Assembly (NCBI GenBank): GCA_905618915.1
Contig: CAJQTI010000046.1
Location: 7,441-71,440 of the forward strand
Source: an uncultured Candidatus Pelagibacter sp.
GTDB lineage: Bacteria > Pseudomonadota > Alphaproteobacteria > Pelagibacterales > Pelagibacteraceae
DNA length: 64,000 bases
Direction of reading: 5' to 3'
Shown here: positions 50,164-64,000 of the stretch, piece by piece
Numbering within the stretch: the first letter of the stretch is position 1
Layout: each line of letters begins with the position of its first letter
Notes under the pieces: model-generated
What the model saw: only the letters and a program-made list of their open reading frames with translations
What the model was told of the DNA's origin: nothing
The model's database searches: none
Program-made: the position numbers and the translations under genes

Positions 50164-51330
50164 CTACTTAATGTGAAGATCTTTTGAAAAATTACAAAAT
50201 AACTCACACCCTTTGTCGGTTATTCGTATTGCTTCTGATGCTTCAACTCCCCATTCTCCAAATTGCATTACAGCAATCATATGAAAAGTAACATTTGGTT
50301 CTAATATAGTCATATCACCTTTAGATATATTAAGGGTATGTTCGCCCCAATCTGGTGGATAACCAATTCCTATTGAATACCCAGTTCTAGAGGTTTTTTC
50401 TATTCCATATTTATCTAGAATTTTCCAAAAAGCTTGCGCAACATCATCTGCTGTTTGCCCTGGTTTTGCTGCATCTATTCCAGCTTGAAGAGCCTCATTT
50501 GTTTTATTCATAGTATCAATTTTCACTCGATCAGGCTTTCCAAGTAAAACTGTTCTTGCCATTGGACAATGATACCTTTGGTATACCCCTGAAAGTTCAA
50601 TAATTGTAGCTTCACCCTCCACAAACTTATCCTGTGTTGCTGTTAAATGTGATGCTGAAGTACCCTTTCCTGTTGGGACTAGTGTTGCAATACTTGAATA
50701 TTCTCCACCAAATTCTGGGGTTCCATAAAATAATGCTTTTTGAATTTCACCCACCGCATCACACTGCCTGACGCCAGGATTTATCACATCAATTGCTGTC
50801 TGCATTCCTTTTTGAGAAATTATTGCTGCAGATTTCATAAGTTCTATCTCCGCATTAGATTTAACAACACGAGCCCAATTAACCAATCTTTCAGAATCTT
50901 TTAACTTAGCATTTGGCAACCCTTGTTTCATTTTTTCATAACAATAAGCTGTAAAATAATGACTATCCATTTCTAAACCTATTGTAAGTTTATCCCATTT
51001 TCTCTCTTTTATAATTTCTACTAAATTATCATAAGGATGAACTGGCCAAGTATGAATATATTTCTCATCATAAACTAAAATATTTTCATTTTTTAAATAA
51101 GTTTTTATATAAGCTCCACCTGAGTCTTGCTTTCTAACCCAACATAATGGCTCATCAGCATTTACATGAACAATTACAGCTTGAGCATAATAAAACGACC
51201 AAGCATCATAGCCAGTTAAATAGTTCATATTTGCTGTATCACTAGAGATTAATAACTCTATGCCTTTCTCTTGCATTGAACTTTGAACTTTTTTTAACCT
51301 TGCTTTGTATTCTTCTTTGCTAAAATTCAT
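50164..51330 (-). CDS. doeA: M24-family ectoine hydrolase-like protein (DoeA/EutD)
   Basis: YLTGYDAWSFY, LVNWAR.VKS, RYHCPMART, GYSIGIGYPPDWGEHT. Confidence 0.75.
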   Translation of the reverse strand: MNFSKEEYKARLKKVQSSMQEKGIELLISSDTANMNYLTGYDAWSFYYAQAVIVHVNADEPLCWVRKQDSGGAYIKTYLKNENILVYDEKYIHTWPVHPYDNLVEIIKERKWDKLTIGLEMDSHYFTAYCYEKMKQGLPNAKLKDSERLVNWARVVKSNAEIELMKSAAIISQKGMQTAIDVINPGVRQCDAVGEIQKALFYGTPEFGGEYSSIATLVPTGKGTSASHLTATQDKFVEGEATIIELSGVYQRYHCPMARTVLLGKPDRVKIDTMNKTNEALQAGIDAAKPGQTADDVAQAFWKILDKYGIEKTSRTGYSIGIGYPPDWGEHTLNISKGDMTILEPNVTFHMIAVMQFGEWGVEASEAIRITDKGCELFCNFSKDLHIK

Positions 51331-51335
51331 ATAGT

Positions 51336-52079
51336 TTAACTATTAAATAATTTTCCAAAACCGTCAATCTTTTCTTTATAATCAATTGCATTAAGAGAAT
51401 CCCAGATTAAAGTTTGATTACTTGATAGAACAACTTTATTTATTTTTTTTTCTAATTTATTAATTATAGATAGCGCTGGTAAAGCCGTACACGAAATAAA
51501 TAACGCCTCACTATCTGCAAGATCTATTTTTGACAAGACATCAAATAAATGATCTTCATCAACTTTTCCAATATCAAGGTCAGAATCAATATCAAAATAA
51601 GTTAAAGAATTAATAATAATATTTTCTTTTTCAAAATAGTTAACCACAGATTCATTTATTGTTTTTGTATAAGGTGTAAAGATGGATATCTTATTAATGC
51701 CTAATACTTTTAAAGCTTTAATTGCAGAAGTTATTGGGGTTGTAACTTTTGCTTCTGGTTTAGCTAAGTGTACTTTTTCTTTTATCACGTCATATCCTGC
51801 TGCAACTGTTCCAGATGTGCAACCATACGCTACACAATCTATTTTTTGATCTGGAAGAATGTCTTTAGTAACCTCAGTAATATCTTCGGCCATTTTAGCT
51901 AACGTTTCATTGGTTAGAGGATTATAACAATGAATTCTATTTACATAGAGATCAATGTCTCTTCCATAGATCACATTATTAAAATCCTTTTCAATTCTAA
52001 AATCACTACCTAATGTGATTAAGCCAATTCTGGGGTTGGATTTTGAAATGTATTTTGGTTCAACCTTGTTTAATTTCAT
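51336..52079 (-). CDS. eutA: EutA-like Asp/Glu racemase / maleate isomerase family protein
   Basis: YGCTSG and FISCTAL catalytic Cys pair, TPY, SSNQ. Confidence 0.72.
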   Translation of the reverse strand: MKLNKVEPKYISKSNPRIGLITLGSDFRIEKDFNNVIYGRDIDLYVNRIHCYNPLTNETLAKMAEDITEVTKDILPDQKIDCVAYGCTSGTVAAGYDVIKEKVHLAKPEAKVTTPITSAIKALKVLGINKISIFTPYTKTINESVVNYFEKENIIINSLTYFDIDSDLDIGKVDEDHLFDVLSKIDLADSEALFISCTALPALSIINKLEKKINKVVLSSNQTLIWDSLNAIDYKEKIDGFGKLFNS

Positions 52080-52111
52080 AAATTACCTGTAATATCTGGA
52101 TTAAATATATA

Positions 52112-52140
52112 TTGAATAAGGAGTCTAGTTAAAATAGAGT
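52112..52140 (+). promoter_or_regulatory. Candidate promoter of the LLM operon, implying a ~100-nt leader
   Basis: TTGAAT-17 nt-TAGAGT; RBS AAGGAGG at about 52235. Confidence 0.45.
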
Positions 52141-52246
52141 TTAGTAAAAGCGTACATAACTCGTCGTTACCTAAGGTTTAAACGGTACTAAAGAATACGA
52201 AAGTGGGATCAGTCGTCTTTAAATTTAATTATTTAAGGAGGTTTGA

Positions 52247-53413
52247 ATGAAGTTTGGATATTTTTGTAACACTACTAACTGGGATCATAAACCATACAAT
52301 CAACTATTAAATGAAACCCAAGAAATCACTACTTACTGTGATGAAAATAATTGGGACTCTATTTGGTATACAGAGCACCACTTCAATCACGAAGGCATGG
52401 AATCTTGTACTAACCCATTAATGATGGGAGTTGATGCTGCCGCCAGAACAAAACAAATTAGAATAGGTCAAGCTTGCAATGTAATTACATTTCATAATCC
52501 TATCCGCCTAGCTGAAGACATAGCTTTGCTAGATCAATTGTCTGGAGGGAGAGTTGATGTTGGTATTGGAAGGGGAATTTATGGAAGAGAAGCCATCAAC
52601 ATGAACAAAGAGGCTGACTTAAAAGATCAAGCTAAAAATTTTAGATTATTTGATGAGACTTTAACAATCATGAAAAAAGCTTGGACTGAGGAATTTTTTA
52701 GTCATAAAGGTGAATTTTATACTTATCCATCACCAAATTTTACTTGGCAACATGATATGAGTCCACCTAGTGAAAAGTTTGTAGATACAAAAACAAATGA
52801 AATAAAAAAGATAAGTGTTGTGCCAAAACCAAAACAAGAACCTCATCCTCCAATATGGCAAGTTGTTGATGGTGCAAGATCAATTGAATGGGCAGCACAG
52901 AATGGCTTAAATACAATAATGTGGATACCTACTGTTAAAGCTTTAAAAAAAAGATTTGAAATTTATAAAGATGCAAAATCTAAAGCAGAAAATAGAGATG
53001 TTCCACTAGGTGAAGGTGTGTCTTTAGTTAGAGATATGTTTGTTGCTGAAACCATGGAAGAAGCAGAAAAAATGGCTGGTGAACATATTATCAATTATAT
53101 GAAGTGGGTATGTCACTGGAGAGGATTAGGTAATCATATGAATCCAGATGAGAAGTTACCAGAAACAAAACATAAATTGGACTTACTCAATTATGATTTT
53201 TTACATAAAAGAAATTTATTATTTGGAACACCAGAGTATGTTGTTAATAAAATAAACGAATTAAAATCAGAGTTAAACTTACAAAACTTACAAGTTTGGT
53301 CTAATTTTCCTGGAATAAATCATGAGGCTTGCATGAGAAGTATAAAGCTGTTTAATGATGAAGTTATACCGAAGATTAATTTAGATAATTCAAATATAGA
53401 GAAAGCAAGTTAA
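52247..53413 (+). CDS. Luciferase-like (LLM) flavin-dependent monooxygenase
   Basis: WYTEHHF, NPIRLAEDIALLDQLSGGR..GIGRG, PKPKQEPHPPIW, FGTPE. Confidence 0.9.
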   Translation: MKFGYFCNTTNWDHKPYNQLLNETQEITTYCDENNWDSIWYTEHHFNHEGMESCTNPLMMGVDAAARTKQIRIGQACNVITFHNPIRLAEDIALLDQLSGGRVDVGIGRGIYGREAINMNKEADLKDQAKNFRLFDETLTIMKKAWTEEFFSHKGEFYTYPSPNFTWQHDMSPPSEKFVDTKTNEIKKISVVPKPKQEPHPPIWQVVDGARSIEWAAQNGLNTIMWIPTVKALKKRFEIYKDAKSKAENRDVPLGEGVSLVRDMFVAETMEEAEKMAGEHIINYMKWVCHWRGLGNHMNPDEKLPETKHKLDLLNYDFLHKRNLLFGTPEYVVNKINELKSELNLQNLQVWSNFPGINHEACMRSIKLFNDEVIPKINLDNSNIEKAS

Positions 53414-54000
53414 TGAAACTAGAACTTAGAAAGTTTACAAAATTTGTAGACAAGACTTTTATTGAAGGTGGTAAAGAAGCTAAGGAACCTGTTCTACTTG
53501 TTTCTGTTGCAGCTGTTTTTAAAAATCCGTGGAGTGGAAAAGGTTTTGTTGAAGATTTAAAACCAATTATTTTAGACTTAGCACCAAAGTTAGGTGATAT
53601 TTTAGTTCCTGAGTTAATAAAAGAAATTGGATCTCCTGAAAAAATTTTAGCCTATGGTAAGGCTGGTACAGTCGGGCTTGACGGTGAAATTGAACATGCA
53701 TCAGCATTTATTCACACTTTAAGATTTGGAAATAAATTTAGAGACGCTGTTGGTGGAACATCTTATTTAAGCTTTACCAATACTAGAGGTCCTGCTGGAT
53801 CAAAAATGTCCATTCCAATGATGCATAAAACAGATTCTGGTCTAAGGCCTTATTATCTTACTCACGAATTTACTATACATGATGCTCCTTTTAATGATGA
53901 AATCGTTATTGCTATCGGTGGAGCTTCGAGTGGTAGAGCCCATGCACGAACAGGAGATCGTTATCAAGATATGAAAGAAATGGGACTAGACCCTAAGTAA
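53413..54000 (+). CDS. Amino-acid-synthesis family (DUF1185) protein
   Basis: AAVFKNPW.G, YGKA..VG..GEIEHA, IPMMHK, DAP..DEIV. Confidence 0.82.
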   Translation: MKLELRKFTKFVDKTFIEGGKEAKEPVLLVSVAAVFKNPWSGKGFVEDLKPIILDLAPKLGDILVPELIKEIGSPEKILAYGKAGTVGLDGEIEHASAFIHTLRFGNKFRDAVGGTSYLSFTNTRGPAGSKMSIPMMHKTDSGLRPYYLTHEFTIHDAPFNDEIVIAIGGASSGRAHARTGDRYQDMKEMGLDPK

Positions 54001-54004
54001 TTGG

Positions 54005-54787
54005 ATGTCTCAAAATTTTGACTCAAATCAAAATTATTATTCATTTATTGATAATAATACAGATCCGTTAGTATTCATTCATGGTGTTGGGCTAGATCAT
54101 GGAATGTGGGAGCCTCAAACTAAATCTTTAAACGATCATTCAATAATTACTTATGACTTGTTAGGTCATGGAAGAACTCCTTATGATAAAGAGGAAGTTA
54201 CTTTGAATGATTTTTCAAACCAATTAGATGATTTATTACAATTTTTAAAAATAGATAAGATTAATCTAATTGGATTCTCTCTGGGTTCATTAGTTGCATT
54301 AGACTTTGCTTCAAAATTTCAGGATAAATTAAAAACCTTAACATTGCTTGGAACTACATATGGAAGAACTATAGAGCAAAGAAGTTTGGTCATAGAAAGG
54401 TTTGAGCAAGCTAAGTTAAATAAACCTATTTCAAAACAAGCACTAAAAAGATGGTTCACAGATCAATACTTAAAAGACCATCCTGAAATTTATGATCAAT
54501 TTATAAAGATCTTAACAAAAAGAGATGAAGATCATGTAAATTTTTTAAAAGCCTATAAACTATTTACTTATCATCAAGACGATATCAGTATGATTAAAAG
54601 TATAAAAACTAAAACTCTGGTGATGACAGGATCAGATGACTTAGGTTCAACAGTTGAGATGTCAAAATCCTTATCTAATGATTTAATAAATTCAAGTTTT
54701 ATTGAGATAAATAATGGCAAACATCTTTGTAGTATAGAATGCGCAGATGATGTAAATATTAAGCTTAAAAATTTTATTAATAATTAA
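54005..54787 (+). CDS. Alpha/beta hydrolase (TgnD-like)
   Basis: FIHGVG, DLLGHG, GFSLG, KRWF, TGSDD.GSTVEM, catalytic His in KHL. Confidence 0.82.
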   Translation: MSQNFDSNQNYYSFIDNNTDPLVFIHGVGLDHGMWEPQTKSLNDHSIITYDLLGHGRTPYDKEEVTLNDFSNQLDDLLQFLKIDKINLIGFSLGSLVALDFASKFQDKLKTLTLLGTTYGRTIEQRSLVIERFEQAKLNKPISKQALKRWFTDQYLKDHPEIYDQFIKILTKRDEDHVNFLKAYKLFTYHQDDISMIKSIKTKTLVMTGSDDLGSTVEMSKSLSNDLINSSFIEINNGKHLCSIECADDVNIKLKNFINN

Positions 54788-56269
54788 ATGACACAAATAC
54801 AAAATTTTAAAATGTTTATTGATGGGGAGTGGTTAGAATCTTCATCTGGAAAAAAAATTGAAACTTTAAATCCTGAAACAAATGAAGTGTGGGCAACTGT
54901 TCCTGAAGCAAGCAAAGAGGATGTTGATAAAGCAGTTAAGGCCGCCCAAAATGCTTTTAATGGATCATGGCCCAAATTACACCCTAAAGAAAGAGCAAAA
55001 TTTTTAAGAAATATTGGTGATCAACTAAGAGAAAATGCCGAACACCTAGGTAAGATTGAAACAATTGATACAGGAAAACTTTATAAAGAAATAAAATCTC
55101 AAGCTATTTATATAGCTGAATATTATGATTATTACGCAGGTCTTGCAGATAAAATTGAGGGCACTGTTGTTCCTATTGATAAACCAGATATGCAAGTCAT
55201 TACTACAAGAATGCCAATTGGTGTAATAGCTGCAATAATTCCATGGAACTCTCAAATGCTTTTGACTGCTGTAAAATTAGCCCCTGCTCTTGCAATGGGA
55301 AATACCGTAGTGATAAAAGCCTCAGAACTTGCCCCTGTTACTTTATTAGAGTTTGCAAAATTAATTGAAAAGTCTGGAATACCTAAGGGTGTAGTAAATA
55401 TAATCACAGGATTAGGTGAACCTTGTGGAAAAGCTTTGACCACTCATGATTTGGTTGAAAAAATTGCATTTACTGGAGGGCCTGAAACTGCAAGACATAT
55501 AATTAGAAATTCTGCAGAAAATTTATCACAGGTAAGTTTAGAGCTAGGTGGAAAAAGTCCTGTAGTTCTTTTTAATGATGCAGACCAGGAAAATGCATTA
55601 AACGGGATAACAGCAGGCATTTTTGCTGCAAGTGGACAAAGCTGTATTGCTGGGTCAAGACTTTATATTCAGTCAAAAATTTATGATGAGTTTTTAGATA
55701 AATTAGTATTAAAAGCGGAAAAAATAAAATTAGGTGCACCAATGGATCCTGATACTCAGATGGGTCCTTTAAATAGTTTTAAACAATTAGAAAATATTGA
55801 AAAAAATATTAAAGCAACATTAGATCAAGGTGGAAAGCTTAGATGTGGTGGAAAACGATCAAACATTTCAAATAAAGGATATTATTTTCCAGCAACAATA
55901 ATTGAATGTAAAAATCACAACTTACCTACTGCTGAAAATGAATTATTTGGACCTATTTTATCTGTTATGAAATTTGAAACTGAAGAAGAAGCGATTAATC
56001 AAATGAACGATAACCAATATGGTTTATCCTCAGGAATATACACCTCTAACTTAGGAAGGGCTATGAGAGTTTCTAAAGCAGTAAGAGCAGGAATTGTTTT
56101 TGTAAATACCTACAGATTAATTTCTCCCTCCGCTCCCTTTGGTGGTATTAAAGATAGTGGCTATGGTAAAGAAGCTGGAATTGAGTCAATAAAAGAATAT
56201 ACAAGAATTAAGACTACATGGTTTAATTCGTCAGATAAACCGATGGGTGACCCATTCACAATGGGTTAA
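54788..56269 (+). CDS. Aldehyde dehydrogenase (TgnC-like)
   Basis: IPWNSQ, KASE, FTGGPETARHIIRNSAENL, ELGGKSP, GQSCIAG, C-terminal GDPFTMG. Confidence 0.88.
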   Translation: MTQIQNFKMFIDGEWLESSSGKKIETLNPETNEVWATVPEASKEDVDKAVKAAQNAFNGSWPKLHPKERAKFLRNIGDQLRENAEHLGKIETIDTGKLYKEIKSQAIYIAEYYDYYAGLADKIEGTVVPIDKPDMQVITTRMPIGVIAAIIPWNSQMLLTAVKLAPALAMGNTVVIKASELAPVTLLEFAKLIEKSGIPKGVVNIITGLGEPCGKALTTHDLVEKIAFTGGPETARHIIRNSAENLSQVSLELGGKSPVVLFNDADQENALNGITAGIFAASGQSCIAGSRLYIQSKIYDEFLDKLVLKAEKIKLGAPMDPDTQMGPLNSFKQLENIEKNIKATLDQGGKLRCGGKRSNISNKGYYFPATIIECKNHNLPTAENELFGPILSVMKFETEEEAINQMNDNQYGLSSGIYTSNLGRAMRVSKAVRAGIVFVNTYRLISPSAPFGGIKDSGYGKEAGIESIKEYTRIKTTWFNSSDKPMGDPFTMG

Positions 56270-56272
56270 TTT

Positions 56273-57130
56273 TTGACTACAAGACATTACCTTTTAGTTT
56301 TATTTATTATGTTTATGTTTGGAAGTTCATATCCAATTAATAAACTTGCTCTAAATACATCCTTACCACCAATGCTAGCTGGATCTTTAAGAATGTTAAT
56401 ACTTTTTATTTGTCTTCTTCCATTTTGTAAATTCAAAATTCCAAATAAAAAATATTTTCTTCCTTTAGCAGGTTTTTCATTATCAATGGGCTTTGGTGTT
56501 ATGTTTTTTTTAAATTTATCGTTAGGGAAAGCAACTTTTGTAGCTCCAATTATTATTGGTGCTCAACTTACAATACCTTTTGCAATTCTTGCCAGTTCAA
56601 TTTTTCTTGGTGAAAAAGTTAATATGAAGCAATGGTTATTAATACTAATTTCTTTTTTTGGAGTTTTTCTAATTGGATACGATCCAAACTTAAAAGGAGA
56701 AATTTATGCAATCTTTTTATGTAGTATTTCAGCTTTTTTTTATGCTATTGCAAATGTTCTTTCAAGATACATAAAAGAAGTTGATGTAAAATTTTCAAAT
56801 ATGATTATGGGATTTACAGGTTTTATAACCATTTTATTATTTTCAATTTTTTCTGAAGGAAATACAGTTTATCATTTAATGAACATAGATATTGCCACCT
56901 GGTTTCTATTACTTCATAATGGAATATCAGTTTCTGTTATTGCACATACTTCTTTATTTTATCTTTATAGATTTTATTCAGTTAATAAAATTATTCCCTT
57001 TTATTCTTTGTTTCCAATATTTGGCTTATTTCTAACATTCCTTATTTTTGGTGAGATTCCAACATTACTTAGTGCAATTGGAGGGGTAATTGTGATTGTT
57101 TCAGTCTATCGGCTTCAAAAAATAAGGTAA
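56273..57130 (+). CDS. DMT/EamA-family transporter
   Basis: About 10 TM segments in two repeats (FLGEK, FGEIP); TTG start 3 nt after the ALDH stop. Confidence 0.85.
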   Translation: MTTRHYLLVLFIMFMFGSSYPINKLALNTSLPPMLAGSLRMLILFICLLPFCKFKIPNKKYFLPLAGFSLSMGFGVMFFLNLSLGKATFVAPIIIGAQLTIPFAILASSIFLGEKVNMKQWLLILISFFGVFLIGYDPNLKGEIYAIFLCSISAFFYAIANVLSRYIKEVDVKFSNMIMGFTGFITILLFSIFSEGNTVYHLMNIDIATWFLLLHNGISVSVIAHTSLFYLYRFYSVNKIIPFYSLFPIFGLFLTFLIFGEIPTLLSAIGGVIVIVSVYRLQKIR

Positions 57131-57206
57131 ATCACCTGTTGAAAATTTGTTCAAATAGGCTTTAATTTCTCTTTTATAAATTGTTAACAATCAAAGAGGA
57201 AATATA

Positions 57207-58391
57207 ATGAAAAAACTATTTATTGCTGCATTTATATTCGTTTCAACTTTTACAACGAATACATTCGCAGAAGTTAAGATGGGAATTATTTTAGGATTTA
57301 CTGGTCCTATTGAATCTCTAACACCAGCTATGGCTGCATCTGCAGAACTTGCTTTTAAAGAAGCTTCTGATTCAGGTTCACTATTAGGTGGAGAAACTAT
57401 TTCAGTAGTAAGAGCAGACTCAACTTGTGTTGATTCAGCAGCAGCAACTGCAGCAGCTGAAGGTGTTATTGCACAAGGTGTAGCAGCAATTATGGGTGCT
57501 GACTGTTCAGGTGTAACTGGTGCTATCGCATCTAATGTTGCTGTACCAAATGGTGTAGTAATGATTTCACCATCAGCAACTTCGCCAGGACTTACAGCTT
57601 TAGATGATAAGGGTTTCTTTTTTAGAACAGCCCCATCTGATGCTAGAGGTGGCCAGATTTTAGCTGATATTACTAAAGACAGAAGAATCAAAAGTGTAGC
57701 AATTACTTACACTAACAATGACTATGGAAAAGGTTTAGCTGATGTTTATGCAGCAGCTGTAAAAGCTCATGGCATTAAAGTAACAATTGTATCTGCTCAT
57801 GAAGATGGAAAAGCTGATTACTCATCTGAAGTAGCTACTTTAGCGTCAGCAGGTGGTGATGCAGTAGCAGTAATTGGTTACCTAGACCAAGGTGGAAAAG
57901 GAATTATTCAAGGTTCTTTGGACTCTGGTGCATTTGATAAATTTATTTTATCTGATGGTATGATTGGTGACTCGTTAACTGATGCTTTTGGAAAAGATTT
58001 AAATAAATCTTTTGGTTCAATGCCCGGTTCAATGAATGAAAAAACAGCAGGTACTTTTGCGTCTGTTGCTAAAGCAGCTGGTATCGACTCGTCTGGACCT
58101 TACACTGGTGAATCTTATGATGCAGCAGCTTTAATCGTTCTTGCGATGCAAGCAGGTGGATCAGCTGATAGAGCTTCTATTGCTAAGAATGTAATGGATG
58201 TTGCTAACGGTCCTGGAACTAAAATTTATCCAGGTGAACTTAAAAAAGGTTTAGATTTATTAGCTAAAGGTAAAAAAGTTGACTACGAAGGTGCAACTGG
58301 AGTTTCTTTTACTAGCGTTGGTGAAGCTGAAGGTTCTTTCTTAGAGAAAGAAATCAAAGGTGGAAAATTTAAAAATAAAAAACAAAGATAA
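57207..58391 (+). CDS. LivJ/K-family ABC substrate-binding protein
   Basis: Signal peptide, SPSATSP, FFRTAPSD, NNDYGKG, YDAA, YEGATG. Confidence 0.88.
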   Translation: MKKLFIAAFIFVSTFTTNTFAEVKMGIILGFTGPIESLTPAMAASAELAFKEASDSGSLLGGETISVVRADSTCVDSAAATAAAEGVIAQGVAAIMGADCSGVTGAIASNVAVPNGVVMISPSATSPGLTALDDKGFFFRTAPSDARGGQILADITKDRRIKSVAITYTNNDYGKGLADVYAAAVKAHGIKVTIVSAHEDGKADYSSEVATLASAGGDAVAVIGYLDQGGKGIIQGSLDSGAFDKFILSDGMIGDSLTDAFGKDLNKSFGSMPGSMNEKTAGTFASVAKAAGIDSSGPYTGESYDAAALIVLAMQAGGSADRASIAKNVMDVANGPGTKIYPGELKKGLDLLAKGKKVDYEGATGVSFTSVGEAEGSFLEKEIKGGKFKNKKQR

Positions 58392-58409
58392 TTAATATCT
58401 TAATTTTAA

Positions 58410-58445
58410 GACCCTCAGCAGTGAAAATTGCTGGGGGTTTTTTTT
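58410..58445 (+). terminator. Intrinsic terminator after the Liv-type SBP gene
   Basis: GACCCTCAGCAGT-GAAA-ATTGCTGGGGGTT followed by a T run. Confidence 0.85.
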
Positions 58446-58447
58446 AT

Positions 58448-59209
58448 CTAAAAATTGCTGATAATCCTAAAAAACCCAAATATTGAGATGAATATAAGAA
58501 AGTAAAAAACTACTTTTCTATAAGTCTCCTCTTTACTTTTAACAAAAAATTTATCACCAAAATAAACACCTATTGGTAAAATAATAATCAGTGGAACGGT
58601 TCTATAAATAGTTGTGACATCTACAATTCCAGCAAAAAAACTAAGAGTAAAAGCATAAATATCTGTTAAGAAAAATAATGCTGCTAATGAACCTCTAATT
58701 ATCGCAGGTTGAATACTTGTAACTAATAAGAATAGTGCAACAGGCATTCCTCCTAAAGTAGTTAATCCATTTAATATTCCGGAAATTATTCCTGTAAAGA
58801 ATTTTCCATAATTGTTATTAATCTTTTGATTTATGTAGCCTCTCATTAATAAAAATGAAAAAAATATGATTATTACACAGACAGATAGATGTGTGACGTC
58901 AGGGGTTAGATATTTTAATAGATAAATACCAACAGGAGAGCCAATAATTATTCCAAATAATAGTTTTACAACAAAATTCCAATCTATTTTGTTCCATATA
59001 TATGGAACCATAAAAATACTAATAATGACCTCAAGTATTAGGATAATTGGAACTATTTCTATCGCTGGAAGAATAAAAGAAAAACCTGAGATGCATGTTG
59101 CTGAAAAGCCAAAGCCATTAAACCCTCTTATAATAGATGCAATAAATACGGTAAATATTACAAAATAAATTTCGACTAAGCTGAGTTGAAAATAAGCTAG
59201 TAAATCCAT
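58448..59209 (-). CDS. TauE/SafE-family membrane protein
   Basis: IRGFNGFGFS, GIISGILNG..GGMP; eight TM segments. Confidence 0.82.
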   Translation of the reverse strand: MDLLAYFQLSLVEIYFVIFTVFIASIIRGFNGFGFSATCISGFSFILPAIEIVPIILILEVIISIFMVPYIWNKIDWNFVVKLLFGIIIGSPVGIYLLKYLTPDVTHLSVCVIIIFFSFLLMRGYINQKINNNYGKFFTGIISGILNGLTTLGGMPVALFLLVTSIQPAIIRGSLAALFFLTDIYAFTLSFFAGIVDVTTIYRTVPLIIILPIGVYFGDKFFVKSKEETYRKVVFYFLIFISIFGFFRIISNF

Positions 59210-59210
59210 C

Positions 59211-60374
59211 TTACTTTCTCTCTTTAAAATCAGCTCTTAATGTTGACAAAATAATTAAAACTAAAAATATTATACAAACTAAATTCATTGTTTTCCAACT
59301 TGTTAAGGTTAAGAAAACTCCTGCAGATAAACTTGCAGTTGCTTGAATTGAATAAACTATTAAATCATTAAAACCTTGTGCTTTAAATTTTTCATTTTCT
59401 CTATACGATAGAACTAACAAACTTGTTCCTGATATAAATAAAAAGTTCCAACCAAATCCTAAAAATATTAATGCAATTAAGTAATTAGTAAAATTTTGAT
59501 CAAAGAAACTAGTTAAAACTGTTATTAAAAATAAAAAAACACCAGCATACATTATTTTACTATGTCCAAATTTTCTTATCAAATTACCAGTAACTAATGA
59601 CGGTAAAAACATAGCTGCAATATGAAGTTGAATTACCAATCCTGTTTTAGTTAAACTTATTTTTTCCATTACATGCATACTTATTGGTGTGGCTGTCATT
59701 AAAAATGCCATTACCGCGTAAGCAAATGCAGAAGCAATTAATGCTTGTAAAAATCTTGGTTGAGAAATTAATTCTAAATAACTTCGTGAATTTTCTTTAT
59801 TAACATTATTTGGTTTGTGTCCATCTTTATAAAAATATAAAAAAATTGTTGATGTAAGTGTTAAAGCTGCAAGTACGATGTACGATCCAGCATATAAATG
59901 TTCAGAAATAATTTCTTTTGAAAAATTGGCCGCATTTGGTCCTATAAAGGCTGATCCTATTCCTGCTAATAATATTATTGATATAGCTTTTGGTGCCATA
60001 TCTTTTTTTACTGTTTCAACAGCTGCAAAACGGTATTGATGGCTAAAAGCTACTCCTGCCCCAAGTAAAAAACATGCAAAATTAAATAAAATAAAACTTT
60101 CACTGATTATTGAGTAAGCAGCAAGCAGTGATGACAATGAGCTTCCAATTGAAGAAAAAATAAATCCTGCTCTTCTACCAATTATACTCATAATTTTTGC
60201 TGCAAAAATTGCAAAAATTGCAACACCTACAATTGATAAAGCCATTGGTAGTGTTGCTAAAGATTTTATTGGGCTAAACTGAGAACCAATTATGCCACTT
60301 AAGAAAACTGTAACTGGCGCTGCTGTAAAAGCAAAGATCTGACTTAAAATCAACAACCACAGATTCTTATTCAT
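59211..60374 (-). CDS. MFS transporter
   Basis: IGRRAGF, YRFAAVE, HIAAMFLPS, LGFGWNF; about 12 TM segments. Confidence 0.88.
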   Translation of the reverse strand: MNKNLWLLILSQIFAFTAAPVTVFLSGIIGSQFSPIKSLATLPMALSIVGVAIFAIFAAKIMSIIGRRAGFIFSSIGSSLSSLLAAYSIISESFILFNFACFLLGAGVAFSHQYRFAAVETVKKDMAPKAISIILLAGIGSAFIGPNAANFSKEIISEHLYAGSYIVLAALTLTSTIFLYFYKDGHKPNNVNKENSRSYLELISQPRFLQALIASAFAYAVMAFLMTATPISMHVMEKISLTKTGLVIQLHIAAMFLPSLVTGNLIRKFGHSKIMYAGVFLFLITVLTSFFDQNFTNYLIALIFLGFGWNFLFISGTSLLVLSYRENEKFKAQGFNDLIVYSIQATASLSAGVFLTLTSWKTMNLVCIIFLVLIILSTLRADFKERK

Positions 60375-60442
60375 TAAAAAAAATATTTATCACCGATGTA
60401 CATAGCCCATGCTACTGCAGCTCCAAGTATAATATATTTCAT
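60374..60442 (-). CDS. Candidate 22-aa hydrophobic peptide
   Basis: MKYIILGAAVAWAMYIGDKYFF; starts 7 nt after the livM stop and its stop overlaps the MFS start (TAATG). Confidence 0.45.
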   Translation of the reverse strand: MKYIILGAAVAWAMYIGDKYFF

Positions 60443-60449
60443 AATAACT

Positions 60450-61820
60450 TTATTTTATTTCTATTTTCTCAGGAAGTATACCTTTAGGGCGATACCTCAT
60501 AATTAACAATAAACCCATCCCCATCATTAAATATCTAAAGTAAGGAACACTCTCTGTTAAATGCACTTTTAACTCATGAGTCTCTGGAAGACCCACAGTA
60601 AACAGATTAATCAAGAACAGGGATATCGGTGCAGCCTCAATCCATAGAAACCATACTGCAAATCCACCTAAAATAGCTCCAAAATTATTTCCACTACCAC
60701 CAACAATTACCATTACCCAAATTAAAAAAGTGTACCTCATAGGTCTGTAACTACCAGGTGTGAATAAACCATCTTGAGTGACTAACATTGCACCTGCAAT
60801 ACCAACTATTGCTGATCCTAAAATAAATATTAACAAATGTTGTTTAACAACATTCTTACCCATAGCATTCGCTGCTTCTTCGTTGTCTCTAATAGCTCTC
60901 ATCATTCTTCCCCATGGAGAATAAAGTGCTTTTTGAGTAACTATTAATAAAGCAATAACTACAATTAAGAATAAACCTGAATAACAAAGTTTTACAAAAA
61001 CTGAAGATCCTTCAATTACCAACTGATTAAGTGCAGCTTGTTTATCTGCAATATTGGAAATTAATTCTAATTTACCTGAATTAAATTTTGCAACTAGATT
61101 AATAAACCATTCAGTTGTCTGAAGGTTAACCTCATAAGGTACTGGTCGATCTAATCCAATTACATTTTTAACACCTCTTGCCAACCAATCTTCATGTTTG
61201 ATTATAGCAATAACAATTTCTGAAATAAGTAATGTAGCGATAGCTAGATAGTCAGCACGTAAACCAAGAGCAACCTTACCTACAATAAATGCTAATCCAG
61301 CCGCAAAGAAAGCTCCAACTATCCATGAAAATACTATTGGTAAACCTAAGCCTCCAAGAAATCCTGTTGTTGCTGGGTTTACTGCTTCGATTGCTTCAAT
61401 GCCTGACTCAGAAGTAATTCTTATAATTACAATTCCAGTAATTATAATTCCGGCTATTCCATATGTTCTTATTTTTGATTTCTCAAAATTTTTTAAAATA
61501 AACCGAATAAGAAAAACTATTGCAATTATTAGACATAGACATATTAGAATATCAAATCCACCTGCACTCCATGCTTCTGGAACAGGATCAACCGATATTA
61601 AAACTGCAGCCAACCCTCCTAAGGCTGCATAACCCATAAGACCAAAGTTAATTAAACCAGCATAGCCCCATTGGACATTTGCTCCCATAGTCATAACTGC
61701 TGAAATTAGACACATATTAAAAATTGAAAGAGCAACATTCCATGATTGAAATATTCCAACTAAAATAATTAAACCCATCATTATTGTATAAGCTGCAATT
61801 ATATTTAAATTCTTTCTCAC
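60450..61820 (-). CDS. livM: Branched-chain amino acid-type ABC permease
   Basis: WGYAGLINFG, LRADYLAIATL, RAIRDNE, VGGSGN; GTG start. Confidence 0.85.
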   Translation of the reverse strand: MRKNLNIIAAYTIMMGLIILVGIFQSWNVALSIFNMCLISAVMTMGANVQWGYAGLINFGLMGYAALGGLAAVLISVDPVPEAWSAGGFDILICLCLIIAIVFLIRFILKNFEKSKIRTYGIAGIIITGIVIIRITSESGIEAIEAVNPATTGFLGGLGLPIVFSWIVGAFFAAGLAFIVGKVALGLRADYLAIATLLISEIVIAIIKHEDWLARGVKNVIGLDRPVPYEVNLQTTEWFINLVAKFNSGKLELISNIADKQAALNQLVIEGSSVFVKLCYSGLFLIVVIALLIVTQKALYSPWGRMMRAIRDNEEAANAMGKNVVKQHLLIFILGSAIVGIAGAMLVTQDGLFTPGSYRPMRYTFLIWVMVIVGGSGNNFGAILGGFAVWFLWIEAAPISLFLINLFTVGLPETHELKVHLTESVPYFRYLMMGMGLLLIMRYRPKGILPEKIEIK

Positions 61821-62827
61821 AGTACTTTCCCTTTAAATATTCCATTGGGTCTATAGAGCAAAACAATCACCAATATAGAAAATGATACTGCAAATTTATA
61901 ATCAGTTGATAATAATTGTACTAACGTTTCTGGCTCCATACTTTCTGGTAAAATATACATAAAAAATTTCTTATATGCGTAAGTAATAAATATCTCTGAA
62001 AAAGCTATGACATATCCCCCTAAAAATGCTCCAAATGGGTTTCCTATACCACCAACAATTGCTGCAGCAAAAATTGGTAACATATTGTTAAAGTAGGTAA
62101 ATGGCTTGAAGCTTTTATCCAAACCATACAAAGCACCACCAATAGTTGCTAAAATACCAGCAATAATCCATGTAATCATAACTACTCTTTTAGGGTCAAT
62201 TCCTGATAATAGAGCCAAATCTTCATTGTCTGAATAAGCACGCATACTTTTTCCTGTTTTAGTTTTGTTTAAAAACCAAAATAAAATTGAAACTAATATA
62301 AGTGTTACAAATACAGTAATTGCCTGACTAGATTTAATTGCTAAACCCTCATTAAGTCCTGTCATTTCTTTAAACTCACCTGCTTTGATAATAAATTTTT
62401 CTCCATCAAAGAATCTTCTGTCAGCAGGACCAATTATTATTCTTACAACAGCTTGTGTTACGAACATTACACCTATACTTACCATTGCAAGTTGAACTGG
62501 TGGACTTTTACTTACCCTGTAATACCTAAATACAAATTTATCTATAAAGAGCATGTAACCAATCATAAAAATTATTGCAAAAGGTATCGCAAGAAGAGCT
62601 GTTGGTAAAACTCCTAGAGAAATACCAATCGATTGAAAATACCAAGTAATTAAAATGGTCACCATTGTTCCAAATGCCATCATGTCTCCGGTTGCAAAGT
62701 TTGCAAATCTTAAGATCCCATAAATTAAAGTTACAAAAATCGCACCGAGTGCTAATTGTGAACCATAAGTTAAAGCTGGAACAAAAATATAATTTAACAG
62801 TAATATTATTGCATTTAAAAAATCCAT
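61817..62827 (-). CDS. livH: Branched-chain amino acid-type ABC permease
   Basis: LIYGILRFANFA.GD, GKSMRAYSDN, VGGIGN. Confidence 0.85.
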   Translation of the reverse strand: MDFLNAIILLLNYIFVPALTYGSQLALGAIFVTLIYGILRFANFATGDMMAFGTMVTILITWYFQSIGISLGVLPTALLAIPFAIIFMIGYMLFIDKFVFRYYRVSKSPPVQLAMVSIGVMFVTQAVVRIIIGPADRRFFDGEKFIIKAGEFKEMTGLNEGLAIKSSQAITVFVTLILVSILFWFLNKTKTGKSMRAYSDNEDLALLSGIDPKRVVMITWIIAGILATIGGALYGLDKSFKPFTYFNNMLPIFAAAIVGGIGNPFGAFLGGYVIAFSEIFITYAYKKFFMYILPESMEPETLVQLLSTDYKFAVSFSILVIVLLYRPNGIFKGKVL

Positions 62828-62828
62828 A

Positions 62829-63536
62829 CTATCCTCCTAAAAATGAGCTTCTTACTCTTGGATCATTTAATAACTCTTTTCCAGTACCTGCATACTTATT
62901 TTCTCCAGTAACCAATACATATCCACGATCAGAAATATTCAATGCTTGCTTAGCATTTTGTTCAACCATTAAAATAGCAACATTTGTTCTTTTAACTTTA
63001 ATGATATGATCAAATAATTCATCCATCACTATTGGAGATACACCTGCCGTAGGTTCGTCTAACATTAATACTGATGGTTTAATCATTAGAGCTCTTCCAA
63101 GAGCAACTTGTTGTCTTTGACCACCAGATAATTCACCAACTAACTGATTTCTTTTTTCTCTTAATATTGGAAAGAGTTCATAAATTTCTTCTATAACATT
63201 TTGATAGTTATCATCTCTCAGATAAGCTCCCATTTCTAAATTTTCTTCAACTGTCATTCCTGCAAAAACATTTTTTGTTTGTGGTACAAATGAAATACCT
63301 TGTCTAACTCTATCCTGTGGTGAAAGTTTTGAAATGTCCTTTCCATCAATAACTACAGCTCCTGATTTTAAATTTATAAGACCAAGTAATGCTTTCATGG
63401 CAGTAGATTTACCGGCACCATTAGGTCCTAGAATTGATACTATCTCCCCTCTATTTACATCAACAGAACAAGAGTTAATAATATCTGGGCCAGTGCCGTA
63501 TCCACCAGTCATTTTTACACCTTCAAAAAAAGCCAT
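62829..63536 (-). CDS. livF: Branched-chain amino acid-type ABC ATPase
   Basis: GPNGAGKST, LSGGQRQ, LDEPTAG, VEQNA. Confidence 0.9.
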   Translation of the reverse strand: MAFFEGVKMTGGYGTGPDIINSCSVDVNRGEIVSILGPNGAGKSTAMKALLGLINLKSGAVVIDGKDISKLSPQDRVRQGISFVPQTKNVFAGMTVEENLEMGAYLRDDNYQNVIEEIYELFPILREKRNQLVGELSGGQRQQVALGRALMIKPSVLMLDEPTAGVSPIVMDELFDHIIKVKRTNVAILMVEQNAKQALNISDRGYVLVTGENKYAGTGKELLNDPRVRSSFLGG

Positions 63537-64000
63537 TAATTTTCATCCTTAATTTTAGATCCTCTGCCCAAATAGCTATCAATAACCTTTTCGTCTTTCT
63601 TAGCCTCTTCAGCAGTTCCTTCAAATAAAACAGATCCTTCTGCCATAACGATAACAGGGTCACATAATCTACTTATAAATTCCATATCATGTTCAATCAT
63701 ACAGAATGTATACCCTTCCTCTTTATTTAACTTCATAATCGCAGTTCCAAGATCTTTAAGTAATGTTCTATTAACACCAGCACCTACTTCATCAAGTAAT
63801 ACAAGTTTAGCATCCACCATCATGGTTCTTCCAAGTTCTAATAGTTTTTTCTGTCCACCTGATAAATTTCCAGCTAATTCATTTGACAAATGTGTGAGAT
63901 TTAAAAAATCTACAACATCTTGAGCTTTTTGTTTAACTACAAGCTCTTCAGTTCTGACTAAACTTGGCTTTAATAATGCTGTCATTAGTTTCTCACCTGA
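63536..64000 (-). CDS. livG: Branched-chain amino acid-type ABC ATPase, 5'-truncated by the window edge
   Basis: LSGGQKKLLE, LDEVGAGVN, IEHDM, YLG; frame stays open to the window end. Confidence 0.88.
   Translation of the reverse strand, partial: SGEKLMTALLKPSLVRTEELVVKQKAQDVVDFLNLTHLSNELAGNLSGGQKKLLELGRTMMVDAKLVLLDEVGAGVNRTLLKDLGTAIMKLNKEEGYTFCMIEHDMEFISRLCDPVIVMAEGSVLFEGTAEEAKKDEKVIDSYLGRGSKIKDEN

What the first reader, a model, noticed from the sequence alone, without database searches (positions are those of the whole stretch)
52247..57130. tgn-like operon: N-methylpyridinium ring cleavage that could feed methylamine to GmaS/Mgs
Seen: LLM monooxygenase, DUF1185 protein, alpha/beta hydrolase, ALDH and DMT transporter, tightly coupled. 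Known: the Acinetobacter baylyi trigonelline pathway uses an LLM oxygenase (TgnB), an ALDH (TgnC) and a hydrolase (TgnD), releasing methylamine, formate and succinate semialdehyde. From recall, the ALDH and hydrolase motifs here match TgnC/TgnD well, while the oxygenase looks much more divergent from TgnB. Inference: catabolism of trigonelline or a related marine N-heterocycle such as homarine.
Basis: partly seen in the sequence, partly recalled or inferred. Interest (0 to 1): 0.72.

Follow-up and report, generated by a model that had tools for sequence, protein, structure and literature searches.

The report
SAR11 trigonelline-like ring-opening operon
This tightly packed operon of the abundant ocean bacterium SAR11 shares two enzymes with the known pathway that breaks down the algal osmolyte trigonelline. 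Its ring-opening oxygenase and its hydrolase come from other lineages, so it probably degrades trigonelline or a close relative by a variant route that nobody has tested.

Summary
At 52247-57130 lie five back-to-back genes: a 388-aa luciferase-like monooxygenase (LLM), a DUF1185/PF06684 protein, an alpha/beta hydrolase, an aldehyde dehydrogenase (ALDH) and an EamA transporter.

The tgn reading is partly supported. I compared the operon with canonical tgn-type clusters from Rhizobium, Chimaeribacter and Paraburkholderia.
- DUF1185 is 56-59% identical and the ALDH 51-52%. Both fall in the same clades as the canonical proteins.
- The hydrolase is only 24-28% identical.
- The LLM is 24-26% identical and lies across the deepest split of the LLM tree, so it is not a TgnB orthologue.

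The same gene order (LLM-DUF1185-hydrolase-ALDH) recurs in Bacillaceae, Actinobacteria and a Rhodospirillales MAG. There it sits with flavin reductases, GntR regulators and BCCT or NCS1 transporters. This points to a two-component oxygenase acting on a betaine-like N-heterocycle.

SAR11 differs from those relatives:
- It has no linked or recognisable dedicated flavin reductase.
- It has no GntR regulator.
- It carries a single-copy, near-invariant leader that can sequester the ribosome-binding site.

Homarine is unlikely, because SAR11 has a separate published hom pathway. A GmaS-like gene co-occurs in 31 of 34 genomes that carry the LLM.

The substrate is inferred, not shown. Earlier follow-ups in this scan found the same operon in other SAR11 genomes and read it the same way. 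I found no paper describing it.

The parts
52146..52241 (+). Conserved 5' leader. The core runs from ACATAACTCGTCG, through a variable insert, to CGAAAGTGGGAT. A CGTCTTTAAA stretch follows that can pair with the Shine-Dalgarno region (AAGGAGG, 52235-52241).
   Evidence: The core is invariant or nearly so across 32 SAR11 leaders whose LLM proteins fall to 74% identity. It occurs once per genome, always just upstream of the LLM. RNAalifold predicts an SD-sequestering helix in which 3 pairs covary. There is no Rfam match.
52247..53413 (+). 388-aa luciferase-like flavin monooxygenase, the proposed ring-opening oxygenase component. It belongs to the 'type-2' lineage and is not a TgnB orthologue.
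   Evidence: PF00296, 156 bits; no NCBIfam model reaches its cut-off. It is 24-26% identical to canonical TgnB-type LLMs and 49-57% identical to the LLMs of syntenic clusters in Bacillaceae and Actinobacteria, 70% in a Rhodospirillales MAG. The tree places it across the deepest split from TgnB-type LLMs.
53413..54000 (+). [quoted passage not shown]
   Evidence: PF06684, 212 bits. It is 56-59% identical to the DUF1185 genes of canonical tgn-type clusters, and the two cluster types interleave in the tree. TgnF is reported to stimulate TgnE-dependent succinate semialdehyde oxidation (PMC7913881).
54005..54787 (+). Alpha/beta-fold hydrolase, the proposed deformylase/enamine hydrolase step. It is at most a distant relative of TgnD.
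   Evidence: Abhydrolase_1. The best NCBIfam match is PcaD, at 115 bits against a 256-bit cut-off. It is 24-28% identical to TgnD-type hydrolases and 35-39% identical to the hydrolases of Bacillaceae type-2 clusters. Ser92, Asp212, His240 and the HGVG motif are conserved. One IMG member of its 90% cluster carries the TgnD product name.
54788..56269 (+). NAD(P)-dependent aldehyde dehydrogenase of the TgnC type.
   Evidence: Aldedh, 547 bits. It is 51-52% identical to the ALDH of canonical tgn-type clusters. It forms one clade with them, separate from the second, SSADH-like ALDH of the Bacillaceae loci. Glu252 and Cys286 are present. An IMG member of the Sporosarcina type-2 ALDH cluster carries the TgnC product name.
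56273..57130 (+). EamA/DMT transporter, a variable accessory gene with a TTG start.
   Evidence: EamA, 91 bits. It is present in only some SAR11 loci, at 46-56% identity where present apart from close relatives.
57207..58391 (+). LivJ-like periplasmic binding protein, probably co-transcribed. It is a candidate uptake component together with the convergent livGFHM-like genes at 60450-64000.
   Evidence: Peripla_BP_6 and ANF_receptor. It follows the cassette in most SAR11 loci at 79-98% identity. No terminator lies between the DMT gene and this one. LivM-, LivH- and LivF-like genes converge on it.
58408..58441 (+). Intrinsic terminator-like hairpin that closes the unit.
   Evidence: A 15-bp stem with 6 GC pairs, followed by a T-run.
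50164..52079 (-). Divergent eutA-like gene (51336-52079) and doeA-like M24 hydrolase gene (50164-51330). They are recurrent neighbours and may be functionally linked.
   Evidence: Both score below the ectoine equivalog cut-offs: 194 against 318 bits, and 439 against 613 bits. They lie next to the cassette in many SAR11 loci. Very distant homologues (31% and 22% identity) sit on the same strand directly upstream of the cassette in a marine Actinomycetota MAG, L089.

Best explanation
This is a conserved SAR11 catabolic operon and a second architectural type of the trigonelline (tgn) pathway.

Inferred mechanism:
1. An FMNH2-dependent luciferase-like oxygenase opens the ring of trigonelline, or of a closely related N-methylpyridinium or pyridine carboxylate taken up from seawater. 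The product is an N-formyl enamine aldehyde or lactol.
2. The TgnC-type aldehyde dehydrogenase oxidises it to the acid.
3. The alpha/beta hydrolase removes the formyl group and hydrolyses the enamine. This releases methylamine (or ammonia), formate and a C4 product that feeds succinate. The TgnF-type DUF1185 protein assists the aldehyde chemistry.
4. Methylamine could then enter the GmaS/N-methylglutamate genes found in the same genomes.

In SAR11 the reduced flavin must come from an unlinked, unidentified reductase. Expression is probably controlled by the conserved leader RNA rather than by the GntR repressor used in other phyla.

What is shown: gene content, orthology of the ALDH and DUF1185, conserved synteny across phyla, and reductase and transporter partners in relatives. 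What is inferred: the substrate, every reaction and the role of the leader.
For: - **Domain content and tight packing:**
- **ALDH and DUF1185:** 51-59% identical to those of canonical tgn-type clusters, and in the same clades. The canonical clusters run GntR-DUF1185-hydrolase-flavin reductase-LLM-ALDH. An IMG member of the Rhizobium LLM's 90% cluster is named trigonelline monooxygenase.
- **Conserved module:** LLM-DUF1185-hydrolase-ALDH appears in the same order in Bacillaceae, Streptomyces, Arthrobacter, Nocardia and other genomes.
- **Partner genes in those relatives:** 14 of the 16 loci that carry the cassette (two of them without DUF1185 or with the hydrolase displaced) have a linked flavin reductase. 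Most have a GntR/FCD regulator, and many a BCCT or NCS1 permease. GntR, NCS1 and a PF01613 reductase also flank canonical clusters.
- **No overlap of types:** none of ten type-2 genomes has a canonical TgnB orthologue, which fits the two types being alternatives.
- **Precedent:** LLM oxygenases that open N-heteroaromatic rings are known. TgnB is an LLM (PMC11354265; PMC8269262).
- **Methylamine link:** a GmaS-like gene is present in 31 of 34 LLM-positive genomes.
- **Ecology:** trigonelline is a common marine metabolite (PMC8269262).
Against: - The LLM and the hydrolase, the two enzymes most likely to set substrate specificity, are only 24-28% identical to the tgn-type proteins. The LLM sits in another deep clade.
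- SAR11 has no PF01613 or Fre-type reductase. Nitroreductase occurs in 1 of 5 genomes. The two PF03358 proteins per genome match that family weakly and show no BLAST similarity to the reductases linked to type-2 clusters.
- About half of the SAR11 loci and one Sporosarcina locus add a ThDP enzyme that has no role in the tgn scheme.
- A recurrent link to eutA/doeA-like genes hints at a different or additional substrate.
- SAR11 shows no BCCT or NCS1 transporter in this locus.
- I made no direct comparison with A. baylyi Tgn proteins, and no experimental data exist.
Confidence: 0.55

Rival explanations
1. The chemistry is the same, but the substrate is a different nitrogen heterocycle or cyclic osmolyte. 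Candidates include nicotinate, nicotinamide, N-methylnicotinamide, another pyridine betaine, or a product of the neighbouring doeA/eutA-like hydrolase pair. The different oxygenase and hydrolase would then reflect a different substrate, and the nitrogen released might be ammonia rather than methylamine.
For: - The two specificity-determining enzymes are not orthologous to TgnB and TgnD.
- An isochorismatase-family amidase and an NCS1 permease accompany the cassette in Bacillus and Sporosarcina.
- eutA-like and M24 genes flank the cassette in SAR11 and in a distant marine Actinomycetota MAG.
- ThDP and methyltransferase insertions occur in some loci.
Against: - The ALDH and DUF1185 interleave with canonical tgn proteins in the trees, which suggests very similar ring-opened intermediates.
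- BCCT transporters point to a betaine-type quaternary amine.
- Type-2 and canonical clusters were not found together in ten genomes.
Confidence: 0.22
2. The route does not involve a heterocycle. The LLM would act as a Baeyer-Villiger or hydroxylating monooxygenase on a cyclic ketone or aliphatic compound. The PcaD-like hydrolase would open the resulting lactone or ester, and the ALDH would oxidise the aldehyde released. DUF1185 would be a general helper of aldehyde oxidation.
For: - The closest curated match for the hydrolase is 3-oxoadipate enol-lactonase, in both NCBIfam and the PDB.
- A full-length PDB match of the LLM is 3,6-diketocamphane monooxygenase, an LLM Baeyer-Villiger enzyme.
- DUF1185 proteins occur in non-tgn contexts such as a hydroxycoumarin cluster (PMC7913881).
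Against: - All these matches are weak and below the family cut-offs.
- The ALDH and DUF1185 group specifically with tgn-cluster proteins.
- The partner genes in other phyla (BCCT, NCS1, GntR/FCD, amidase) fit a polar nitrogenous substrate.
Confidence: 0.13
3. The operon degrades homarine (N-methylpicolinate).
For: Homarine is an abundant isomer of trigonelline in seawater.
Against: - Homarine catabolism has been assigned genetically to homABCD(E), reported in all 120 Pelagibacter genomes surveyed. It yields N-methylglutamate with the methyl group retained, not methylamine (PMC13236597).
- That paper describes HomA as FAD-binding and homB as about 1.7 kb, and never mentions a luciferase-like enzyme.
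- The hom operon is mainly gamma- and alphaproteobacterial, whereas this cassette occurs in SAR11, Firmicutes and Actinobacteria.
Confidence: 0.05

Closest known systems
Trigonelline catabolic cluster tgnABCDEF of Acinetobacter baylyi ADP1 (Perchat et al. 2018, PNAS). It is represented here by its homologues on Rhizobium, Sinorhizobium, Chimaeribacter and Paraburkholderia replicons.
   Same: - It has the same four protein families: LLM oxygenase, DUF1185 (TgnF), alpha/beta hydrolase and ALDH.
- The ALDH and DUF1185 fall in the same clades, at 51-59% identity.
- Type-2 relatives in other phyla share the accessory families: flavin reductase, GntR regulator and NCS1 permease.
   Different: - The LLM (388 aa against about 345 aa) is 24-26% identical and lies on another deep branch.
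- The hydrolase is 24-28% identical.
- The gene order differs: LLM-DUF1185-hydrolase-ALDH here, DUF1185-hydrolase-reductase-LLM-ALDH in the canonical clusters.
- SAR11 has no TgnA reductase, no TgnE-type second ALDH and no GntR regulator.
- SAR11 has a conserved leader instead.
Other LLM-type oxygenases that open N-heteroaromatic rings: pyridine monooxygenase PyrA/PyrE of Arthrobacter sp. 68b and tetramethylpyrazine TpdAB of Rhodococcus jostii TMP1. This entry rests on my own knowledge and was not tested here.
   Same: They are two-component, flavin-dependent, luciferase-like enzymes that cleave an aromatic N-heterocycle directly. Dehydrogenase and amidohydrolase steps follow.
   Different: I made no sequence comparison. 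Those clusters are not known to contain DUF1185 or a TgnC-type ALDH.
Homarine operon homABCD(E)R (Ferrer-Gonzalez et al. 2026, PMC13236597)
   Same: It is a catabolic operon for an N-methylpyridinium carboxylate, it is present in SAR11, and it includes an ALDH-like enzyme and a hydrolase/peptidase.
   Different: - Its oxygenase pair is described as an FAD-binding HomA plus a homB of about 1.7 kb, not an LLM.
- Its product is N-methylglutamate, not methylamine.
- Its taxonomic range is different.

Membership tests
tgn trigonelline catabolic cluster | The oxygenase component is orthologous to TgnB (LLM of about 345 aa) | tested here: not met
   It is 24-26% identical to TgnB-type LLMs of Rhizobium, Chimaeribacter and Paraburkholderia. 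More than 150 clusters at 50% identity score higher than these do. It lies on the opposite side of the deepest split in the LLM tree. The A. baylyi TgnB sequence itself was not available.
tgn trigonelline catabolic cluster | A dedicated NADH:flavin reductase (TgnA, PF01613) encoded next to the oxygenase | tested here: not met
   None is in the operon. PF01613 gave no hit in the window's genome or in five complete SAR11 genomes that carry the operon. Fourteen of the 16 non-SAR11 loci that carry the cassette do have a linked reductase.
tgn trigonelline catabolic cluster | TgnC-type aldehyde dehydrogenase | tested here: met
   It is 51-52% identical to the ALDH of canonical clusters and shares one well-supported clade with them. 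Catalytic Glu252 and Cys286 are present. The TgnC name appears on an IMG member of a type-2 ALDH cluster.
tgn trigonelline catabolic cluster | TgnD-type alpha/beta hydrolase | tested here: inconclusive
   It is 24-28% identical, about the same as to PcaD. The catalytic triad and several motifs are shared. One of the members read from its SAR11 90% cluster carries the TgnD name in IMG; the others are named generically.
tgn trigonelline catabolic cluster | TgnF-type DUF1185 protein | tested here: met
   PF06684, 212 bits. It is 56-59% identical to cluster-encoded DUF1185 proteins of canonical loci. The two types interleave in the tree. The TgnF family is documented in PMC7913881.
tgn trigonelline catabolic cluster | GntR-type regulator and a cluster-encoded succinate semialdehyde dehydrogenase (TgnE) | tested here: not met
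   The SAR11 locus has no regulator gene and no second ALDH. Both occur in the Bacillaceae type-2 loci.
tgn trigonelline catabolic cluster | Enzymatic conversion of trigonelline to methylamine, formate, CO2 and succinate semialdehyde | not testable with these tools
   This needs biochemistry or culture work.
homABCD(E) homarine operon | Homology to HomA (FAD-binding), HomB (gene of about 1.7 kb), HomC and HomD | not tested
The published descriptions do not fit an LLM, and the paper never mentions luciferase-like enzymes.
Riboswitch (cis-regulatory leader RNA) | A conserved structured aptamer with covariation, plus an expression platform | tested here: inconclusive
   The core is near-invariant and occurs once per genome, upstream of the LLM. 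The predicted SD-sequestering helix has 3 covarying pairs, but the core helices show almost no variation. There is no Rfam match. A protein operator is not excluded.

The most novel reading that the evidence does not exclude
The 388-aa LLM founds a previously unrecognised lineage of flavin monooxygenases that cleave N-heteroaromatic rings. This lineage replaced TgnB (and its hydrolase replaced TgnD) in SAR11, Bacillaceae and Actinobacteria. In SAR11 it works without any dedicated flavin reductase. It is switched on by a new, operon-specific riboswitch that senses trigonelline or a related pyridinium compound. Together these would give the ocean's most abundant heterotroph a route from an algal osmolyte to methylamine and succinate.
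Probability: 0.3. Interest if true: 0.8.

Novelty: new variant of a known kind. Interest (0 to 1): 0.6.

Why it matters
Trigonelline and its relatives are abundant nitrogen-containing metabolites made by phytoplankton. SAR11 is the most numerous heterotroph in the sea. The proteins of this operon are very common in marine metagenomes: the 90%-identity cluster of the DUF1185 protein has 12,417 members and that of the LLM has 2,852.

If the reading holds, it would have three consequences:
- It would identify a sink for pyridine betaines in the open ocean and link it to methylamine and C1 metabolism.
- It would show that the oxygenase and the hydrolase of a known pathway have been replaced by non-orthologous enzymes.
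- It would supply a candidate new riboswitch and an example of a two-component oxygenase kept after its reductase was lost.

All of this can be tested directly in cultured SAR11 isolates that carry the operon.

Tried and rejected
- **A. baylyi Tgn data:** the Perchat et al. 2018 paper (PMC5948990, by PMC id and by DOI) is not held. I could not obtain A. baylyi Tgn sequences. Six Acinetobacter plasmid hits exist but were never among the rows listed. Canonical clusters from Rhizobium, Chimaeribacter and Paraburkholderia served as proxies.
- I used the search for related loci on genome contigs instead.
- **Uninformative searches:** PDB sequence searches and the protein atlas gave only generic family matches.
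- **LLM against plasmids:** the best hit was 33% identical and carried no functional name.
- **Dehalococcoidia LLMs:** these are 35-39% identical but lack the cassette, so I set them aside as paralogues.
- **Flavin reductase in SAR11:** PF01613 and PF00175 are absent, and PF00881 occurs in 1 of 5 genomes. The PF03358 hits are weak and show no BLAST similarity to the reductases linked to type-2 clusters.
- **ThDP enzyme as a required step:** I rejected this for the window's form of the operon. Genomes with this form hold only 30%-identical paralogues.
- **Rfam:** nothing credible turned up across 51800-58600.
- **Literature:** searches for trigonelline with SAR11, BCCT or LLM, and for Pelagibacter with luciferase-like monooxygenase, found no description of this operon.

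Full report
**What is there.** The window is low-GC (about 31%) and comes from a 60%-complete Pelagibacteraceae (SAR11) genome. At 52247-57130 five + strand ORFs follow one another, with gaps from a 1-nt overlap to 4 nt.
- A 388-aa luciferase-like monooxygenase (LLM, PF00296).
- A 195-aa PF06684/DUF1185 protein.
- A 260-aa alpha/beta hydrolase.
- A 493-aa aldehyde dehydrogenase (ALDH).
- A 285-aa EamA transporter.

No NCBIfam equivalog reaches its cut-off for any of them. The catalytic residues of the hydrolase (HGVG, Ser92, Asp212, His240) and the ALDH (Glu252, Cys286) are intact.

**Boundaries and neighbours.** A LivJ-like binding protein (57207-58391) follows on the same strand, with no terminator before it. 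A strong terminator lies at 58408-58441. Converging on it are TauE, MFS and livM/H/F-like genes. Upstream and divergent lie an eutA-like gene, a doeA-like M24 hydrolase and a Pot-like ABC transporter. The first two score below the ectoine equivalog cut-offs.

**Conservation in SAR11.** The LLM was found in 34 of 151 sampled Pelagibacteraceae genomes, including 15 of 20 in the window's genus. The core LLM-DUF1185-hydrolase-ALDH is constant in about 45 loci, and the binding protein nearly always follows. The DMT gene is variable. About half of the loci carry a ThDP-dependent enzyme, most like sulfoacetaldehyde acetyltransferase or acetolactate synthase, inserted after the LLM. Some of these also carry a methyltransferase. 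Genomes with the window's form of the operon have only 30%-identical paralogues of that ThDP enzyme, so it is an accessory gene.

**Comparison with tgn.** I could not obtain the A. baylyi paper or its sequences. From other papers:
- TgnA/TgnB is a two-component flavin oxygenase that opens the trigonelline ring (PMC8269262; PMC13236597).
- TgnB is a luciferase-like enzyme (PMC11354265).
- TgnF is a DUF1185 protein that stimulates the succinate semialdehyde dehydrogenase TgnE (PMC7913881).

A tblastn search with the SAR11 DUF1185 protein against plasmids found clusters ordered GntR-DUF1185-hydrolase-flavin reductase (about 310 aa)-LLM (about 345 aa)-ALDH. They occur in Chimaeribacter, Rhizobium and Paraburkholderia, and by coordinates also in Ensifer and Sinorhizobium, including pSymA of S. 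meliloti. An IMG member of the Rhizobium LLM's 90% cluster is named 'flavin-dependent trigonelline monooxygenase, oxygenase component'. I take these as the canonical type.

Identities of the SAR11 proteins to the canonical type:

| Protein | Identity |
|---|---|
| DUF1185 | 56-59% |
| ALDH | 51-52% |
| Hydrolase | 24-28% |
| LLM | 24-26% |

**A second cluster type.** A library-wide search showed that the SAR11 LLM belongs to a small subfamily: 227 clusters at 50% identity score below E = 1e-30. A scan of representative genomes found the same module in the same order in several groups:
- Bacillaceae: Pseudalkalibacillus, Alteribacillus, Bacillus and Sporosarcina.
- Actinobacteria, with DUF1185 duplicated: Streptomyces, Arthrobacter, Sinomonas, Nocardia and Actinoallomurus.
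- A marine Actinomycetota MAG and a Rhodospirillales MAG.

LLM identity to SAR11 in these loci is 49-70%.

Fourteen of the 16 loci that carry the cassette have a flavin reductase: 11 of the PF01613 type and 3 of the PF03358 type. Two of the 16 depart from the plain module: the Rhodospirillales MAG has no DUF1185 gene, and one Sporosarcina locus has its hydrolase upstream. Most have a GntR/FCD regulator and a BCCT or NCS1 permease. Some add a second ALDH, a YCII protein and an isochorismatase-family amidase. These partners show that the LLM is a two-component FMNH2-dependent oxygenase. They point to a polar, betaine-like nitrogen compound. GntR, NCS1 and a PF01613 reductase also flank canonical clusters.

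**Trees.**
- The cluster ALDHs of both types form one clade, with the canonical sequences nested among the type-2 ones. This clade is separate from the second, SSADH-like ALDH.
- DUF1185 proteins of the two types interleave in the same way.
- Type-2 LLMs form a clade inside a group of 380-400-aa LLMs. TgnB-type LLMs lie across the deepest split of the tree.

The two cluster types therefore share the ALDH and DUF1185 but recruited different oxygenases, and probably different hydrolases. None of ten type-2 genomes holds a canonical TgnB orthologue. This fits the idea that the two types are alternatives, but it does not prove it.

**What is odd in SAR11.**
- The operon has no reductase gene. Five complete genomes that carry the operon have no PF01613 or Fre-type protein, and one has a nitroreductase. 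Each has two weak PF03358 members that show no BLAST similarity to the reductases linked to type-2 clusters.
- There is no regulator gene. Instead the 100-nt leader holds a near-invariant core, even where the LLM protein has diverged to 74% identity. The core occurs exactly once per genome.
- RNAalifold pairs the conserved CGTCTTTAAA stretch with the Shine-Dalgarno region, and three of those pairs covary. The same stretch could instead pair with the upstream AAAGCG. This is a riboswitch-like arrangement, but the covariation is thin and Rfam has no match.

**Substrate.** Trigonelline, or a very close analogue, is the most economical reading. The conserved ALDH and DUF1185 imply similar ring-opened intermediates, and the partner genes match. 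Against it, the two enzymes most likely to set specificity differ from their tgn counterparts. The ThDP insertions have no place in the tgn scheme. eutA-like and M24 genes recur beside the cassette, including on the same strand in a distant marine actinobacterial MAG.

Homarine is unlikely. Its catabolism is assigned to homABCD(E), which is reported in all 120 Pelagibacter genomes surveyed and yields N-methylglutamate with the methyl group retained (PMC13236597).

The suggested hand-off of methylamine to GmaS/Mgs fits the co-occurrence data. A GmaS-like gene is present in 31 of 34 LLM-positive genomes, and the three exceptions are 57-66% complete. The two gene sets often lie 27-64 kb apart. 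Both are concentrated in the same few genera, so this is weak evidence.

**Novelty.** I found no paper describing this operon. Earlier follow-ups in this scan reached the same reading on other SAR11 genomes and also noted the leader and the ThDP form. My analysis supports them and adds four things: the ALDH/DUF1185 and LLM trees, the transporter and reductase partners in Firmicutes and Actinobacteria, the negative survey for a reductase, and the GmaS co-occurrence.

**Verdict.** The operon is a new variant of a known kind of pathway. Its function is inferred, not shown.

Noticed in passing
window 52146-52241: The leader before the LLM has a near-invariant core: ACATAACTCGTCG, a variable insert, then CGAAAGTGGGAT. 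It occurs once per genome. A helix with three covarying pairs can hide the ribosome-binding site. It looks like a riboswitch, and Rfam has no match.
   Followed up: partly
L015:8884-11214; L018:1734-3443; many loci L066-L098; L050:1006: About half of the SAR11 loci insert a 566-aa ThDP enzyme between the LLM and DUF1185. Its best matches are sulfoacetaldehyde acetyltransferase and acetolactate synthase, both below cut-off. One locus adds a SAM methyltransferase. A 56%-identical ThDP enzyme sits beside the cassette in Sporosarcina sp. P13. Its role is unknown.
   Followed up: partly
window 50164-52079 (- strand); L089:306-2251: An eutA-like (Asp/Glu-racemase/Amdase family) gene and a doeA-like M24 hydrolase gene lie divergent from the operon in many SAR11 genomes. 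Very distant homologues sit on the same strand directly upstream of the cassette in a marine Actinomycetota MAG. This may be a functional link. Neither SAR11 protein reaches the ectoine equivalog cut-offs.
   Followed up: partly
window 57207-58391 and 58448-64000: A LivJ-like binding protein is probably co-transcribed with the operon. It faces a convergent set of TauE, MFS and livM/H/F/G-like genes. Together these could form the uptake system for the unknown substrate.
   Followed up: partly
G041, G120, G146, G066, G126 (complete SAR11 genomes): These genomes carry a two-component-type LLM oxygenase but no PF01613 or Fre-type flavin reductase. Only two weak PF03358 members are found per genome. 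How FMNH2 is supplied remains unexplained.
   Followed up: partly
L026, L028, L029, L039, L042, L044, L051, L061: Actinobacterial versions of the cassette carry two tandem DUF1185 genes. These form two separate clades in the tree, which indicates an old duplication.
   Followed up: no
L054:6502-8105: In Sporosarcina luteola the BCCT transporter upstream of the cassette is split into two ORFs of 304 and 230 aa. This could be a frameshift or a pseudogene.
   Followed up: no
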